Shown: positions 18,351-31,039 of the stretch, piece by piece | How positions within the stretch are numbered: the stretch's first letter is position 1 | Layout: every line of letters starts with the position of its first letter | NCBI GenBank assembly: GCA_964618645.1 | Contig: CAZUBW010000001.1 | Span: 83,236-147,235 of the forward strand | Source of the DNA: an uncultured Bacteroidales bacterium | GTDB taxonomy: Bacteria; Bacteroidota; Bacteroidia; Bacteroidales; UBA10428 | DNA length: 64,000 nucleotides | Direction of reading: 5' to 3' | Position numbers and translations under genes: made by a program | Notes under the pieces: generated by a model | What the model was told of the DNA's origin: nothing | Seen by the model: only the letters and a program-made list of their open reading frames with translations | Databases searched by the model: none

Positions 18351-19676
18351 TCAGAACGGGAATGGTCCCCTGGGCCGCTGATCTGACTGACTTTCAGATT
18401 CTTTTTCCTTTCCCTCACTCATGGAGATCACTACTTCATCGCCCTCTTTTAAACCGGTTACAATTTCCACAAAGTTACCATTGTCGATACCGGTTTTAAT
18501 GGGGTTGGGCCTGATGCCTCCCTTGTCGTCTTTCACCCATACCATTTTCATATCACTTGCACCACCAAAACCTCCGAAACCTCCCTGCGGCATAGCCGGG
18601 AAACCGCCAGTTGGCATGGTCTGGCCGGCAGGCATTTGCCGGGTTTGTGCCTGATTGCCCGTACCACTCTGTGCTCGTGCACTACCTGGCATGCCTTGTG
18701 GAAAAGACCCCTCTGGTGCATTCTTCATCATTTTCTCTATTTGCTTTTGCATATAAGCCATGTCGGGGGTAAAACGGGTGGCTTTACCAGCCAGCATCAG
18801 TACACTGTCTTTCTCTTCGACATAAATGGTTGCGTTTGCGGTCATGCCTGGCATCAGCTTTTTGTCAGGATTAGGTGCGCTCAGAATCACAGCGTAGGTC
18901 ACCACGTTGTTGGTGGTGGTCGGCTGAAGTCTCACTTCAGATACTGATCCGTCGAATTTAAGGTCGGGATAAGCATCAACAGTGAACTCCACGCGTTGAC
19001 CCTTTCTTACATTTCCAATGTCAGCCTCACTTACGCTGGTTTCTACTTCCATTTGGGTAAGATCGTTTACAATGGTAAAGAGGGTTGGCGTATTAAAGCT
19101 GGCAGCCACTGTCTGGCCTTCTTCAACTGCTCTGTTCAGCACTACACCATCTATTGGTGAGGTGATGGTGGCATAGTTCAGGTTGGTAAGGTTCCGGTCA
19201 TAAGACGATTTGGCATTCTTAAGCGATGACCTGGCATTTTCGTAGTTGTACAATGCCTGGTCATAATCCGATTGAGCAATCAGCTTTTTTTCATACAAAG
19301 CTTTCATCCGGTTAAAGGTTGCCTCCTGATAGGTCAGCTGTGCCTGTGCCTGATCAAGTGTGGCCCTGCTTTGCTCAAGTTGGGCAGCAAGCTGCTTCTT
19401 ATCGAGTTGGGCCATTATTTCACCTTTTTTAACATCATCGTTAAAGTCGACATATATCCTGTCTATAATACCGGATACCTGTGTTCCTACATCTACTGAA
19501 GTAACCGCTTCGATAGTACCGGTGGCAGTTACCACGCTGGTTATTTTCCCTTTTTCAACCTTTACGGTTTCAAATGTATAGGCTTCATCTTTATGGCCAA
19601 ACGGTTTAAAGATCAACAAGGCCATAACGGCGACTGCCACAATCACTACGCCAAAAATGATCACTTTCTTTTTCAT
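18351..19676 (-). CDS. efflux periplasmic adaptor (HlyD/MacA membrane-fusion protein family)
   Basis: N-terminal TM, barrel-sandwich/lipoyl segments, a coiled-coil hairpin (QLEQSRATLDQAQAQL...), and beta-barrel domains. Contains an unusual Gly/Pro/Gln/Met-rich insertion. Confidence 0.85.
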   Translation of the reverse strand: MKKKVIIFGVVIVAVAVMALLIFKPFGHKDEAYTFETVKVEKGKITSVVTATGTIEAVTSVDVGTQVSGIIDRIYVDFNDDVKKGEIMAQLDKKQLAAQLEQSRATLDQAQAQLTYQEATFNRMKALYEKKLIAQSDYDQALYNYENARSSLKNAKSSYDRNLTNLNYATITSPIDGVVLNRAVEEGQTVAASFNTPTLFTIVNDLTQMEVETSVSEADIGNVRKGQRVEFTVDAYPDLKFDGSVSEVRLQPTTTNNVVTYAVILSAPNPDKKLMPGMTANATIYVEEKDSVLMLAGKATRFTPDMAYMQKQIEKMMKNAPEGSFPQGMPGSARAQSGTGNQAQTRQMPAGQTMPTGGFPAMPQGGFGGFGGASDMKMVWVKDDKGGIRPNPIKTGIDNGNFVEIVTGLKEGDEVVISMSEGKEKESESQSDQRPRGPFPF

Positions 19677-19716: not shown

Positions 19717-21072
19717 TTATAAGGTTAAAGGAATGCCCATGTAAAAATCAAGGATTTTATAGCTGAATATAAGGTTGTATTTCGACTGCAGCCATTGACT
19801 TTCTGCTACAATCAGGTTTGTTTTTGAAACCTGGTAATCCACCGAGTTGATAATTCCCTGGTTAAATTTTTCATCAGACAGGGCAGACGACTCTTTTATG
19901 GCGGTATAATTCTCGAGGTTTGCCTCATATTCCATTTGTGCCGAAAGTACGTCCTGACAAGCCTGTTCAATACTTTTCCGCAACTGATTTCGGGTTTCCA
20001 GCTCACTCAGCTCAGCCTGCTGGTAATTGAGTTGGGCCAGCGCCACACTGGTTTTTGCCTGTTTTCGCTGATAAATTGGAATGGAAAGAGAAAGGCCTGC
20101 AGCGGGCGACAACGCATGATCGAGTTGTTTGAAGTAACTATCTTCTGATCCGTTATCCGAGAAGCTGGCGCCTGTTCCTACGCTGGCACTGGCAGAAAGA
20201 CTGGGATAGAAGGCTGCCCTGGCAATTTTTTCATCCAGCAGGGCTATTTCTTTACTGACAGCTGCACTTTTCACTTGTGGTTTAATAGCCAGGGCAGTGT
20301 CATACACTGACTGTACAACAGGTAATCGCTGCTGGTTCAATGTTTCATCGAGATTGGGCTTGGCAAGTTCGAAACTTGCGCTTACCGGCAATTCCATAAG
20401 CTGCATAAGGTTTACCTTGGCAATGGCCAGCTGACTGATAGCATTTGCCAGGTTCAGCTTTTGAGTGGCCAGTTGTGATTTTACCTGAAGAAAATCTGCT
20501 TGCGAAATAACCTGCAGATTCATGCGTTCTTCAGCCAGGTTAACCTGTTGTGTTGTTGATTCGATCTGCTTTTCGGAATTCTTTACCTGCTCTTCGGCAT
20601 ACAATACCTGTAAAAATGCATTAAGAATGCTCAGGCTTATCGATTCGCGGGTATTTTCGAGATTATACCTTCCGGTTTCTATATCAAGTTCCGATTGCTT
20701 GATCTGGTTATTCAACCGCATCCCGTTATACAGGGTAACATTGGCGTTTACCCCATAGCTGGTGCTATTGCCGGCATCGAATCCACTCCCATATACCATT
20801 TCGCCAGTACCGGCATCCAGGGTCCCGGGTCTGCTCCATTTGAAATTCTGGTTAACCGAGGCATTCACCGAAGGAAGCCGCTGTGCCTTTACTTGTCCGG
20901 CCTGGTATTCAAGCGAAAGATTGGACAACCCGGCCTTCCTTACCGTTATATTCTGCTCAAGTGCATAGTTTATACAGGCTTCAAGCGTCCAGGGTTTTCC
21001 ATCCTGGGCAGCAATACCCGTACCCATAAAAAACAACCCTGTTCCAACCCATAAAACCAGTCTCATCCGCAT
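19717..21072 (-). CDS. TolC-family outer membrane efflux protein
   Basis: Signal peptide starting at MRMRLVLWVGTGLFFMGTGIAAQ, followed by the two-repeat OEP architecture. I prefer the ATG at 21072 to the ORF-track start at 21189. Confidence 0.85.
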   Translation of the reverse strand: MRMRLVLWVGTGLFFMGTGIAAQDGKPWTLEACINYALEQNITVRKAGLSNLSLEYQAGQVKAQRLPSVNASVNQNFKWSRPGTLDAGTGEMVYGSGFDAGNSTSYGVNANVTLYNGMRLNNQIKQSELDIETGRYNLENTRESISLSILNAFLQVLYAEEQVKNSEKQIESTTQQVNLAEERMNLQVISQADFLQVKSQLATQKLNLANAISQLAIAKVNLMQLMELPVSASFELAKPNLDETLNQQRLPVVQSVYDTALAIKPQVKSAAVSKEIALLDEKIARAAFYPSLSASASVGTGASFSDNGSEDSYFKQLDHALSPAAGLSLSIPIYQRKQAKTSVALAQLNYQQAELSELETRNQLRKSIEQACQDVLSAQMEYEANLENYTAIKESSALSDEKFNQGIINSVDYQVSKTNLIVAESQWLQSKYNLIFSYKILDFYMGIPLTL

Positions 21073-21336
21073 CGTAAGGATCCTGTATATCCAAATTCCG
21101 GAATCACATAAAAATGAAAAGCCGGCATGCATTAATTCATGCCTGTTTTTGTTTTTTATCAAAAATGCTCGTCTCATAACATTATTCAATTTTGGTATAA
21201 AAGTATGCGGACCATTTTTGACGACCTAACATAATAGAAGAATACCCCTTTTTCATAGACTAACGGGCATCTTTCAGCTATCACCGGACAACCATCCTAA
21301 ATGCTGTTAACAGGAATCAGCTGTTGGCCATTAGAT

Positions 21337-21427
21337 ATTAGCTGTGAGCTATGAGCTATTAGCTGTGAGCTATTAGCTGTGAGCTTTGAGCTTTGAGCTT
21401 TGAGCTTTGAGCTTTGAGCTTTGAGCC
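21337..21427. repeat. 13 tandem heptads with invariant (G)AGCT core (attagct/gtgagct/atgagct units, then 5x ttgagct + ttgagcc)
   Basis: Read directly. AGCT recurs at strict 7-bp phasing across 91 bp. The array is flanked by GCCATTAGATA / GCCAATAGATA direct repeats and the GCCATTAG...CTAATGGC inverted pair. Confidence 0.9.
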
Positions 21428-21508
21428 AATAGATAAAAGCTAATGGCAAACAATCATGAATTGAAATCAGAGGCTCATAATATCAATATATTTTCTTAAA
21501 CTTGCACT

Positions 21509-22153
21509 ATGAAGTGGATGGACAATTTCAAAGCATACATGGGCAGGCGTGAGCTAAGGACTCACCTGAAGGACCGGAATCGCACACCTGTGGTATGCAA
21601 TATTGAACATGCCAAACACATAGGCATCATTTACAATGCCACCGAAGGCGTTAGTTTTGAAATAATCCGTAACCTGGTAAAGGATCTCTCCGGGTCGTCG
21701 CGCAAGATAACCGTTCTGGGATACGTCGACAGCAAGAAACTAATTGATAATTATTTATACCGGAAAGGTTTTGATTTCTTTTCAAAGAACGACCTGAATT
21801 GGTATTGGCGACCAGTTTCGCCACTGGTTGATCAATTCATCAAGGAACCTTTTGATTTGCTGATCAACCTTAGCCTCGAAAACCATTACCCCATTCAGTA
21901 TATTACCGCGATATCTCCCGCTACGTTCAAAGCAGGGAAGTTTTCACCCGATGATATTTACCTCGATCTGATGATCGACATTGAAAAAGAGAAACAAGCC
22001 ATGCAGGCCTTGCAGCAGGAAATTGGAAAAGAAAGCAACCGCAAACGCAGCAAGGATGAAATTGAGGCTGACATTCAGAGAAAAACGGAAACCGAAATCC
22101 AGCTCAACTTTCTCATACGCCAGCTCATGCATTATTTATCTGTTCTTAAATAA
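21509..22153 (+). CDS. hypothetical protein (conserved-looking cytoplasmic protein with a charged coiled-coil C-terminus), upstream of dapA
   Basis: 214 aa ORF with no long competing ORF on the opposite strand and 11 nt spacing to dapA. I recognise no motif. Confidence 0.65.
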   Translation: MKWMDNFKAYMGRRELRTHLKDRNRTPVVCNIEHAKHIGIIYNATEGVSFEIIRNLVKDLSGSSRKITVLGYVDSKKLIDNYLYRKGFDFFSKNDLNWYWRPVSPLVDQFIKEPFDLLINLSLENHYPIQYITAISPATFKAGKFSPDDIYLDLMIDIEKEKQAMQALQQEIGKESNRKRSKDEIEADIQRKTETEIQLNFLIRQLMHYLSVLK

Positions 22154-22164
22154 TAAACCGATCT

Positions 22165-23049
22165 ATGGACCATAAGAAATTCACAGGCACAGGTGTGGCC
22201 ATTGTTACGCCTTTCAGAAATGATGGCAGTATCGATTTCAAATCGCTGGGCAAGTTACTCGAGCACCTCATAAAAGGTGGAGTCAATTACGTGGTAGCGC
22301 TGGGCACCACCGGCGAATCCGTTACCCTTACCAAAGACGAAAAAAAGGCGATCATTAATTTTGTTACAGATACCGTAAGCAGCCGAATACCTGTTGTTGT
22401 CGGCGTTGGCGGGAACAATACGCAGGAAATTCTCGACACCATCAAACATACCGATTTTACGGCTATCGACTGTGTACTGTCGGTTTCACCTTATTATAAC
22501 AAGCCGTCCCAGCAAGGCATATACCTTCATTACAAGGCCATTGCTACTGCCTGCCCTGTACCGGTGATCATTTACAATGTACCAGGCCGCACAGGATCAA
22601 ATATTTCAGCCGAAACCACCCTGAAGCTTGCCAGTGACTGCAAGTCAATTATTGGCACCAAGGAAGCTTCGGGAAATATGGCGCAAATCATGCAGATCAT
22701 CGGAAATAAACCGAAAAATTTCCATGTAATATCGGGTGATGATGCCCTTGCGCTTCCCATTATTGCCATTGGAGGAGCCGGTGTTATTTCGGTTACAGCC
22801 AATGCTTTTCCCCATGAAATTTCCAGCATGGTAAATCATGGGCTTAAAGCCGAAATGTCAAAGGCTGCCAGCATCCATTACAAAATGCTCGACATAACCA
22901 ATGCCCTGTTTGAAGAAGGAAGTCCTGCCGGAGTGAAAGCCATGCTTGATATATTAAAAATTGCACCCCAAACGGTAAGGTTACCCCTGGCACCGGTAAG
23001 TGAGCAGCTTTCCAAGAAGCTTGAGATGCTCGCAAAAAAGAACAAATAG
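22165..23049 (+). CDS. dapA: 4-hydroxy-tetrahydrodipicolinate synthase
   Basis: 294 aa with GTGVAIVTPF, ALGTTGES, and YNVPGRTG with the downstream active-site Lys region (GTKEASG). Confidence 0.92.
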   Translation: MDHKKFTGTGVAIVTPFRNDGSIDFKSLGKLLEHLIKGGVNYVVALGTTGESVTLTKDEKKAIINFVTDTVSSRIPVVVGVGGNNTQEILDTIKHTDFTAIDCVLSVSPYYNKPSQQGIYLHYKAIATACPVPVIIYNVPGRTGSNISAETTLKLASDCKSIIGTKEASGNMAQIMQIIGNKPKNFHVISGDDALALPIIAIGGAGVISVTANAFPHEISSMVNHGLKAEMSKAASIHYKMLDITNALFEEGSPAGVKAMLDILKIAPQTVRLPLAPVSEQLSKKLEMLAKKNK

Positions 23050-30920: not shown

Positions 30921-31039
30921 CCCTGACAGGGTTTTAAACCCTGTCAGGGGTCTGATGGGGTTTTAAACCCTGTCAGGGGTCTGATGGGGTTTTAAACCCT
31001 GTCAGGGGTCTGATGGGGTTTTAAACCCTGTCAGGGGTC
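30921..31039. repeat. 29-bp tandem repeat (~4 copies), each unit carrying the palindrome CCCTGTCAGGG; one inverted copy at the left end
   Basis: CCCTGTCAGGGG occurs at 30939, 30968, 30997 and 31026 (exact 29-bp period). CCCTGACAGGG at 30921 forms a perfect hairpin with the first unit. Confidence 0.9.

What the first reader, a model, noticed from the sequence alone, without database searches (positions are those of the whole stretch)
21318..21448. Thirteen phased heptads with an invariant AGCT core in the divergent intergenic region between the TolC operon and the dapA-upstream gene
21337-21427 consists of attagct/gtgagct/atgagct units followed by five ttgagct units and one ttgagcc. AGCT recurs every 7 bp for 91 bp. 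The array is bracketed by direct repeats GCCATTAGATA / GCCAATAGATA and an inverted pair GCCATTAG...CTAATGGC. Heptanucleotide tracts in promoter regions are classic slipped-strand contingency loci that change promoter spacing. They are unusual in an otherwise housekeeping neighbourhood. A 7-bp period also places successive AGCT sites on rotating helical faces, which argues against a simple protein-binding array.
Basis: seen in the sequence. Interest (0 to 1): 0.45.

Follow-up and report, generated by a model that had tools for sequence, protein, structure and literature searches.

The report
Heptamer-repeat hairpin element between promoters
The 7-base repeat tract is real, but it is one copy of several hundred such tracts in this uncultured Bacteroidales genome: a fast-changing hairpin-type repeat lying just upstream of two promoters, and probably not a dedicated genetic switch.

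Summary
Observation confirmed. AGCT recurs every 7 bp twelve times (21340-21420), followed by one AGCC unit. Chance expectation is 0.

The array is not a lone oddity. The genome has about 44-52 GAGCT-core arrays and about 590 short-period arrays, and period 7 dominates. They are mostly intergenic, occur in every gene-orientation context, and show no strand bias.

The nearest relative (G017) has a 12-unit palindromic heptamer hairpin (22-bp stem) at the same site, with no GAGCT units. This genome keeps the outer stem and has 7 extra units (49 bp) in one arm. More distant congeners lack the element but keep the same about 30-nt block before the ATG. The array therefore lies upstream of the likely core promoter and does not alter its internal spacing.

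GAGCT-family heptamers also form the inverted arms around a small four-helix-bundle (23S-IVS protein family) gene, both here and in a congener at a different site. All 20 sampled genes of that family in the genus carry such arms.

Best reading: a slippage-prone foldback repeat, a new member of the known but unexplained heptanucleotide-repeat class. A contingency-switch role is unsupported.

This scan had already flagged the same repeat class in this genome and in other Bacteroidales genomes.

The parts
21318..21450 (.). Whole foldback heptamer element: 19 units in the register NAGCYNN
   Evidence: phase and non-chance. (aligned with the 12-unit element of the nearest relative). (fold).
21337..21427 (+).
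21381..21422 (+). Perfect run GAGCTTT x6. This is the youngest, lineage-specific expansion and lies inside the 49-bp (7-unit) segment absent from the relative.
21322..21334 (.). Left half of the retained outer stem (TGTT.GCCATTAG)
   Evidence: pairs with 21440-21452; the relative's element folds as a 22-bp stem, z = -6.1.
21440..21452 (.). Right half of the retained outer stem (CTAATGGC.AACA)
21283..21315 (.). 33-bp segment directly left of the element that the nearest relative lacks
   Evidence: alignment A1.
21233..21282 (.). Block AATAGAAG...CATAGAC conserved in congeners that have a divergent upstream gene. Probably the upstream/-33 region of the TolC-operon promoter, or an operator. Its distance to the DUF6913 ATG varies from about 80 to 265 bp among congeners.
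   Evidence: The function is inferred.
21196..21205 (-). Candidate -7 box of the TolC-operon promoter (minus strand TACTTTTA, close to the Bacteroidetes consensus TAnnTTTG)
   Evidence: conserved in congeners, and preceded at 19 nt by TTTG in the array-free relatives. Inferred, not mapped.
21451..21508 (+). Spacer between the array and the ATG. It holds the genus-wide conserved block (ATCAATATATTTTCTTAAACTTGCA), with a candidate -7 box TATATTTT at 21487-21494. This is the likely core promoter and short leader of DUF6913-dapA.
   Evidence: conserved in all 30 congeners. (95% identical to the nearest relative). The TSS is inferred.
21509..22153 (+). DUF6913 gene, followed by dapA at 22165-23049
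19717..21072 (-). TolC-like outer-membrane efflux gene, first gene of an OEP-HlyD-MacB ABC efflux operon

Best explanation
The element at 21318-21450 is a foldback (hairpin-type) heptanucleotide repeat. It consists of two convergent arms of 7-nt units (RGCYRTT units facing RGCYAAY units) and is one copy of a dispersed family in this Bacteroidales genome.

In the ancestor shared with the nearest relative it was a compact palindrome. In this lineage the left arm was overgrown by GAGCTDY units (D = G/A/T, Y = T/C). These are one base away from the ancestral TAGCTGT. The most likely mechanism is slipped-strand mispairing during replication, which added whole 7-bp units, most recently GAGCTTT x6.

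The element lies in the spacer between two divergent core promoters, upstream of both. It most likely has no dedicated regulatory role here and is tolerated, fast-turning-over repeat DNA.

The same heptamer family supplies the complementary arms that close small four-helix-bundle (23S-rRNA-IVS protein/S23p-like, PF05635) genes into long stem-loops. Such a cassette has moved between genomic contexts. The dispersed arrays and gene-less hairpins are therefore best seen as arm material of that hairpin-cassette system, amplified and reshaped locally by slippage.

Shown: the anatomy, the genome-wide family, the orthologous comparison, and the link between arms and the four-helix-bundle gene. Inferred: slippage as the mechanism, the promoter positions, the lack of function at this locus, and the direction of descent between cassette arms and solo arrays.
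For: Array and phase:
- The array is real and non-random.

Genome-wide family:
- 52 arrays have AGCT every 7 bp.
- 44 strict GAGCT arrays hold 351 units. The two variable positions use only GT, GC, TT, AT, TC and AC.
- Period 7 is the commonest TRF period: 577 rows against 238 for period 6 and 243 for period 8.
- 588 merged arrays of 6-9 nt units cover 0.73% of the genome.
- 178 of 247 clusters are intergenic, although crude ORFs cover 90% of the genome, and they occur in all four gene-orientation contexts.
- There is no strand or position bias. Upstream of genes: 18 sense, 13 antisense. Downstream: 22 sense, 14 antisense.

Orthologous site:
- G017 (DUF6913 93% identical) has a 12-unit array with the same first and last units and no GAGCT units. 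It folds as a 22-bp stem.
- The window copy keeps the outer stem.
- Flanks are 92-95% identical, the array is 71% identical, and there is a 49-bp indel.
- The other 28 congeners read lack the element; those that keep the divergent TolC neighbour have a ~190-bp spacer. All 30, G017 included, keep the block before the ATG.

Other copies:
- Foldbacks of the same unit type occur at 7 or more other loci.
- Convergent inverted pairs were found only for the AGCT-core family: 4 of 43 arrays, against 0 for the 15 other cores tested, under strict criteria.

Four-helix-bundle link:
- 4 of the 5 PF05635 genes in this genome are bracketed by inverted 6-, 7- or 9-nt arrays, one of them by GAGCY arms. The predicted RNA fold closes that ORF, z = -5.9.
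- The 71%-identical homologue in G023 also has GAGCT arms but different neighbouring genes.
- All 20 sampled PF05635 genes from 10 congeners have such arrays within 150 bp. Density is 1.36 per kb, against 0.14 per kb at control loci.

Literature:
- Heptamer excess and the slippage proposal: Mrazek 2007, as cited in PMC4679880.
- 70-75 convergent inverted heptamer pairs in Xanthomonas, with length variation between species: PMC4692102.
Against: - No read or population data could be examined, so instability within a population is not shown.
- The promoters are inferred from conservation only, with no TSS data. If a promoter lies upstream of the array, the array would be in a 5'UTR. A hairpin built on heptamers does regulate hmw1A in Haemophilus (PMC12721329).
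- Only 5 four-helix-bundle genes stand against hundreds of arrays in this genome. No gene fragments lie next to solo arrays. Copy number of these genes across the genus does not track the GAGCT or CAGCACC pattern counts. Descent of solo arrays from cassettes is therefore unproven, and the reverse (cassettes landing in or recruiting existing arrays) is possible.
- In this genome, same-family arrays bracket ordinary genes in direct orientation (16 gene sets) as often as in inverted orientation (15).
- The restricted D-Y variation and the recurrent AAA+WAGCT outer boundary (11 of 20 arrays) hint at some sequence constraint that neutral slippage alone does not explain.
Confidence: 0.68

Rival explanations
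1. Contingency (phase-variable) locus. Gain or loss of 7-bp units changes the geometry of the divergent promoter region and switches or tunes the TolC efflux operon and/or DUF6913-dapA. A variant of this reading puts the array and its right arm in a 5'UTR as an RNase III hairpin, as in hmw1A of Haemophilus influenzae.
For: The array sits in a divergent promoter region and carries a perfect 42-bp run. It differs from the relative by a 7-unit indel. It can fold with a downstream arm. A heptamer repeat with a hairpin and RNase III is a proven switch in hmw1A (PMC12721329).
Against: The array lies upstream of the only block conserved in all congeners, directly before the ATG. Relatives without the array keep that block. 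The distance from the upstream conserved block to the ATG already varies from 80 to 265 bp among congeners. The same arrays occur in convergent gaps and downstream of genes with no orientation bias. The genes are housekeeping. There are hundreds of such arrays.
Confidence: 0.08
2. A purely local simple-sequence repeat. The tract arose on the spot from a chance seed by polymerase slippage, which favours 7-nt units, with no relation to any dispersed element or cassette.
For: Heptamers are the commonest long SSR class in many bacteria, and slippage is the published proposal (Mrazek 2007, cited in PMC4679880 and PMC4692102). The whole-unit indel fits this, as do the higher-order 14- and 21-bp duplications.
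Against: The same GAGCT core with the same restricted D-Y variation recurs at 44 loci. Outer boundaries recur. The same two-arm palindromic architecture recurs at 7 or more other loci. The family travels with a four-helix-bundle gene into a different context in another species. Independent seeds would not converge in this way.
Confidence: 0.15
3. A functional DNA element. The array binds a protein or extrudes a cruciform that insulates or couples the two divergent promoters, or it is a cluster of AGCT methylation sites.
For: The AGCT core is invariant and the variable positions are restricted. The ancestral form is a stable palindrome. Seven-bp units return to the same helical face every 21 bp. 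Two C5 cytosine methyltransferase genes exist in the genome.
Against: AGCT is not depleted genome-wide. There is no positional rule relative to genes. The element is absent from most congeners, which have the same promoters. The specificity of the methyltransferases is unknown.
Confidence: 0.07

Closest known systems
Heptanucleotide long simple-sequence repeats of bacteria: cyanobacterial STRR (Mazel 1990), LSSR survey (Mrazek 2007), GGGAATC/GGGGAYT of Xanthomonas and Nostoc (Rehm 2015, PMC4692102), TAACTGA of Beggiatoaceae, cyanobacteria and a few Bacteroidetes (MacGregor 2015, PMC4679880)
   Same: Tandem 7-nt units. Tens to hundreds of dispersed, mostly intergenic arrays per genome. Heptamers are the dominant period. 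Length and sequence differ between close relatives at conserved positions. Arrays are often paired in convergent inverted orientation, as in Xanthomonas. The function is unknown.
   Different: The unit here has a palindromic AGCT core (GAGCTDY / RGCYRTT) and cannot form a G-quadruplex. The host is an uncultured Bacteroidales. Many unit families coexist in one genome. The arms are linked to four-helix-bundle genes, a link I did not find in the four papers read here.
hmw1A/hmw2A (ATCTTTC)n phase-variable repeat of Haemophilus influenzae (PMC12721329)
   Same: A heptamer tandem repeat upstream of a gene, able to pair with a downstream arm into a long hairpin.
   Different: In hmw1A the repeat is transcribed in the 5'UTR, cut by RNase III and controls a surface adhesin, and it is a single dedicated locus. 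Here the array lies upstream of the inferred promoter of housekeeping genes and is one of hundreds.
23S rRNA intervening sequences carrying an S23p/four-helix-bundle ORF (Leptospira, Coxiella; PMC4990558)
   Same: Complementary terminal arms form a long stem. In this genome and genus, genes of the same protein family (PF05635) are closed by such stems, built from the same heptamer families.
   Different: The window element has no ORF and is not in rRNA. Its arms are tandem heptamers rather than unique inverted repeats.
REP/BIME/REPIN and MITE-type palindromic intergenic repeats
   Same: A short, dispersed, hairpin-forming, non-coding intergenic element with many copies.
   Different: There is no fixed-length consensus copy, no target-site duplication was seen, and no cognate transposase was identified. 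Y1 transposase genes occur in nearly all congeners regardless of repeat content.

Membership tests
Bacterial heptanucleotide LSSR / STRR-type arrays | Head-to-tail tandem repeats of a 7-nt unit | tested here: met
Bacterial heptanucleotide LSSR / STRR-type arrays | Many dispersed arrays of the same unit in one genome, mainly intergenic | tested here: met
Bacterial heptanucleotide LSSR / STRR-type arrays | Period 7 over-represented among short periods | tested here: met
   577 rows for period 7, 238 for period 6, 243 for period 8..
Bacterial heptanucleotide LSSR / STRR-type arrays | Copy number and sequence differ between relatives at a conserved position | tested here: met
   The array at the citF end is also shared with G023 at a different unit number.
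Phase-variable contingency locus (promoter or 5'UTR SSR) | Repeat lies between the core promoter elements, or inside the transcript or ORF of the controlled gene | tested here: inconclusive
   One search places the conserved promoter-proximal block downstream of the array. No TSS data are available.
Phase-variable contingency locus (promoter or 5'UTR SSR) | Unit number varies within a population | not testable with these tools
The Logan contig of SRR8925767 breaks inside the run. Two metagenome scans found no other copy.
Phase-variable contingency locus (promoter or 5'UTR SSR) | Controlled gene is a surface, host-interaction or restriction-modification function | tested here: not met
   DUF6913 and dapA on one side, a general TolC-HlyD-MacB efflux operon on the other.
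IVS-type hairpin cassette with a four-helix-bundle gene | Complementary arms forming a long stem | tested here: met
   For true cassettes.
IVS-type hairpin cassette with a four-helix-bundle gene | PF05635 ORF enclosed by the arms | tested here: not met
   There is no such ORF between the arms in the window. The 50-aa minus-strand ORF across the repeat has no family match. No PF05635 fragments were found.
MITE / REP-like mobile palindromic element | Multiple copies with the same terminal inverted structure | tested here: met
   7 or more other foldbacks of the same unit type. Their lengths vary.
MITE / REP-like mobile palindromic element | Target-site duplication and a cognate transposase | tested here: inconclusive
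   The array-free relatives are too diverged to define insertion ends. Y1 transposase counts do not discriminate between genomes.
AGCT restriction-modification target array | AGCT avoided genome-wide, and an AGCT-specific methyltransferase present | tested here: inconclusive
   AGCT observed/expected is 0.89, similar to other palindromes. Two C5 methyltransferase genes of unknown specificity are present.

The most novel reading that the evidence does not exclude
The long-unexplained bacterial heptanucleotide repeats would be the arm material of a mobile class of hairpin-closed gene cassettes that carry a four-helix-bundle (S23p / IVS-protein / Avd-like) gene. Solo arrays and gene-less hairpins such as this one would be their amplified remnants. 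The same link may hold across phyla: Xanthomonas, the source of the solved S23p structure, is also rich in convergent heptamer pairs, and cyanobacteria have STRR repeats.
Probability: 0.22. Interest if true: 0.7.

Novelty: new member of a known kind. Interest (0 to 1): 0.3.

Why it matters
For this locus the result is mainly corrective. A tract that looks like a phase-variation switch is one of hundreds of repeat copies, so annotating it as a regulator would be unsafe.

The wider pattern is more interesting. Heptamer repeats have been noted in cyanobacteria, Xanthomonas, sulfur bacteria and Bacteroidetes since 1990 without an explanation. In this genus they are enriched about tenfold around four-helix-bundle genes, and they form the stems that close those genes. 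This gives a concrete, testable lead to their origin.

They also break short-read assemblies: 58 of 404 contig ends in this genome lie at such arrays.

Tried and rejected
- Rfam scan of 21000-21600 on both strands: only sub-threshold chance hits.
- The 50-aa minus-strand ORF through the array: no family match, and not conserved in the relative. It is an artefact of a stop-free repeat unit.
- Sigma-70-type promoter scan: no more hits than shuffles gave. This model does not suit Bacteroidetes.
- AGCT avoidance: not seen.
- Exact-protein look-up: it gave only a Logan contig that ends inside the repeat. The TolC protein was not on record.
- Two metagenome pattern scans with flank words: no hits.
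- Orientation and position bias of GAGCT arrays relative to genes: none.
- Gene-bracketing rule: direct and inverted pairs around ordinary genes are equally common.
- Correlation of four-helix-bundle or Y1-transposase gene counts with repeat-pattern counts across 35 congeners: none.
- Remnants of four-helix-bundle genes beside solo arrays: none.

Full report
**Observation**

The stretch 21337-21427 reads as thirteen 7-nt units: attagct, gtgagct, atgagct, attagct, gtgagct, attagct, gtgagct, ttgagct x5 and ttgagcc.
- TRF reports period 7, 12.4 copies, score 118.
- Five AGCT spaced by 7 bp match eight overlapping times in the window, all at this site. None of 100 dinucleotide-preserving shuffles gave a match.
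- The flanks are in the same phase, so in the register NAGCYNN the element has 19 units (21318-21450), with GAGCTTT x6 at 21381-21422.
- On the minus strand to the left lies a TolC-like OEP gene followed by HlyD and MacB-type ABC genes. On the plus strand to the right lie DUF6913 and dapA.

**It is not a lone locus**

The window's genome has 4.32 Mb in 202 contigs at 45% G+C.
- It holds 52 arrays with AGCT every 7 bp.
- Of these, 44 are strict GAGCT arrays with 351 units. Their two variable positions use only GT, GC, TT, AT, TC and AC, so the unit is GAGCTDY.
- TRF finds 577 period-7 rows, the commonest period, in many unit families.
- Merged arrays of 6-9 nt units number 588 and cover 0.73% of the genome.
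- With crude ORF calls covering 90% of the genome, 178 of 247 array clusters are intergenic. They lie between co-directional, convergent and divergent genes alike.
- GAGCT arrays show no preference for the upstream or downstream side of genes, or for the sense or antisense strand.
- 58 of 404 contig ends lie at such arrays.

**The organism and the orthologous site**

The DUF6913 protein finds uncultured Bacteroidales genomes. In 35 genomes of the same genus the gene is nearly always present, and I read its upstream region in 30 of them.

The nearest relative, G017 (a Bacteroidales MAG, protein 93% identical), has a 12-unit heptamer array at exactly this place.
- It has the same first and last units but no GAGCT units.
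- As single-stranded DNA it folds into a 22-bp stem with one mismatch, z = -6.1.
- The window copy keeps the outer stem (21322-21334 with 21440-21452), with a swollen interior.

In the pairwise alignment:
- The non-repeat flanks are 92-95% identical.
- The aligned array columns are about 71% identical.
- There is an indel of exactly 49 bp, or seven units.
- A further 33 bp on the left is present only in the window genome.

The other 28 congeners read, whose DUF6913 protein is 55-75% identical, have no element here; where the divergent TolC neighbour is kept the spacer is about 190 bp. All 30 congeners, G017 included, keep a block of about 30 nt directly before the ATG. I take this block to be the core promoter and short leader (inference). 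The array ends about 60 bp before the ATG, so unit changes would not alter core-promoter spacing. An upstream conserved block (AATAGAAG...CATAGAC) sits at 80-265 bp from the ATG in different congeners, so that distance is not constrained either.

**A foldback family**

Elements with the same architecture, a run of RGCYRTT units facing a run of RGCYAAY units, occur at 7 or more other loci of this genome, along with solo arms. GAGCTGT differs from the ancestral TAGCTGT by one base. The window copy is therefore a foldback whose left arm was overgrown by the genome's abundant GAGCTDY type.

Under strict criteria, convergent inverted partners within 150 bp were seen only for the AGCT-core family: 4 of 43 arrays, against none for the 15 other cores tested. 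Looser reading of the flanks shows more such partners. Rehm et al. reported 70-75 convergent inverted heptamer pairs in Xanthomonas, with length differences between species (PMC4692102).

**Link to four-helix-bundle genes**

Earlier notes of this scan on other Bacteroidales genomes suggested that heptamer arms frame small four-helix-bundle genes. I tested this here.

In this genome:
- There are five PF05635 genes, and four are bracketed by inverted arrays of 6-, 7- or 9-nt units.
- One of them, on contig 95, has GAGCY-type arms. The predicted RNA fold pairs the two arms across the whole ORF, z = -5.9.

In congeners:
- Its 71%-identical homologue in G023 also has GAGCT-family arms, but neighbouring genes that do not match. 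The gene and its arms have therefore changed context together.
- All 20 sampled PF05635 genes from 10 congeners have short-period arrays within 150 bp, mostly of the same family in inverted orientation.
- Array density at these genes is 1.36 per kb, against 0.14 per kb at 28 control loci and 0 at six transposase loci.

Limits of this link:
- Only five such genes stand against hundreds of arrays.
- No gene remnants lie beside solo arrays.
- Gene counts do not track repeat-pattern counts across the genus.
- Same-family arrays bracket ordinary genes (mgsA, yqeY, yceD, ubiE) in direct orientation as often as in inverted orientation.

**Other tests**

- No Rfam family matches.
- AGCT is not depleted (observed/expected 0.89).
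- Two C5 methyltransferase genes exist, but their specificity is unknown.
- Y1 transposase genes occur in nearly all congeners.
- The GAGCT pattern gives 175 matches in this genome, 18 in G023, 6 in G017 and 6 in a genome of another family, and none in 37 others.
- The CAGCACC family shows a similar subclade-limited spread.
- Population-level length variation could not be tested.

**Conclusion**

The contingency-switch reading is not supported by position, by context or by the genome-wide distribution, although within-population variation remains untested. The element is a slippage-prone foldback heptamer repeat, a new member of the known but unexplained class of bacterial heptanucleotide repeats. 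Its unit family is shared with the stems of four-helix-bundle gene cassettes.

The scan had already flagged this repeat class in this genome and in other Bacteroidales genomes.

Noticed in passing
window 30929-31039: A perfect tandem repeat of a 29-bp unit, 3.8 copies. Each unit carries overlapping palindromes (GGGTTTTAAACCC and CCCTGTCAGGG), so it is a string of hairpins.
   Followed up: partly
window 21073-21189: About 105 bp lies between the position where congeners start their TolC gene, next to the promoter, and the signal-peptide start here (ATG at 21072). It is present only in this genome and its nearest relative. It contains a terminator-like hairpin (21124-21143) and stays in frame with the TolC ORF. 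It may be an inserted hairpin element or a leader attenuator.
   Followed up: partly
own genome contig 95, bases 1-660 (L083): A four-helix-bundle (PF05635/TIGR02436) gene closed by GAGCY-type heptamer arms. Three more such genes have 6-, 7- and 9-nt inverted arms (contig 25 near 34.6 kb, contig 3 near 90.6 kb, contig 35 near 8.8 kb).
   Followed up: yes
own genome contig 60, about 18470-18800: The fifth four-helix-bundle gene has no short-period arms. It is followed by a tandem repeat of a unit of about 100 bp that contains G-runs.
   Followed up: no
own genome contigs 2 (about 112 kb), 36 (about 28 kb) and 6 (about 60 kb): L080-L082: The housekeeping genes yqeY, yceD and mgsA are each flanked by nested inverted arrays in the same module order: an outer hexamer or CAGCACC run and an inner AGAACCA/AAGAGCC run.
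   Followed up: partly
GAGCT arrays genome-wide: The outer boundary of GAGCTDY arrays is often AAA followed by A/T-AGCT (11 of 20 independent starts). The inner boundary decays into GAGCC or GAGTT units. The arrays therefore have a polarity that neutral slippage does not explain.
   Followed up: partly
L034, L036, L037, L040 (congeners, upstream of DUF6913): Other species of the genus carry unrelated 7- and 8-nt tandem repeats in the same upstream spacer. This spacer seems to have gained short-period repeats repeatedly.
   Followed up: no
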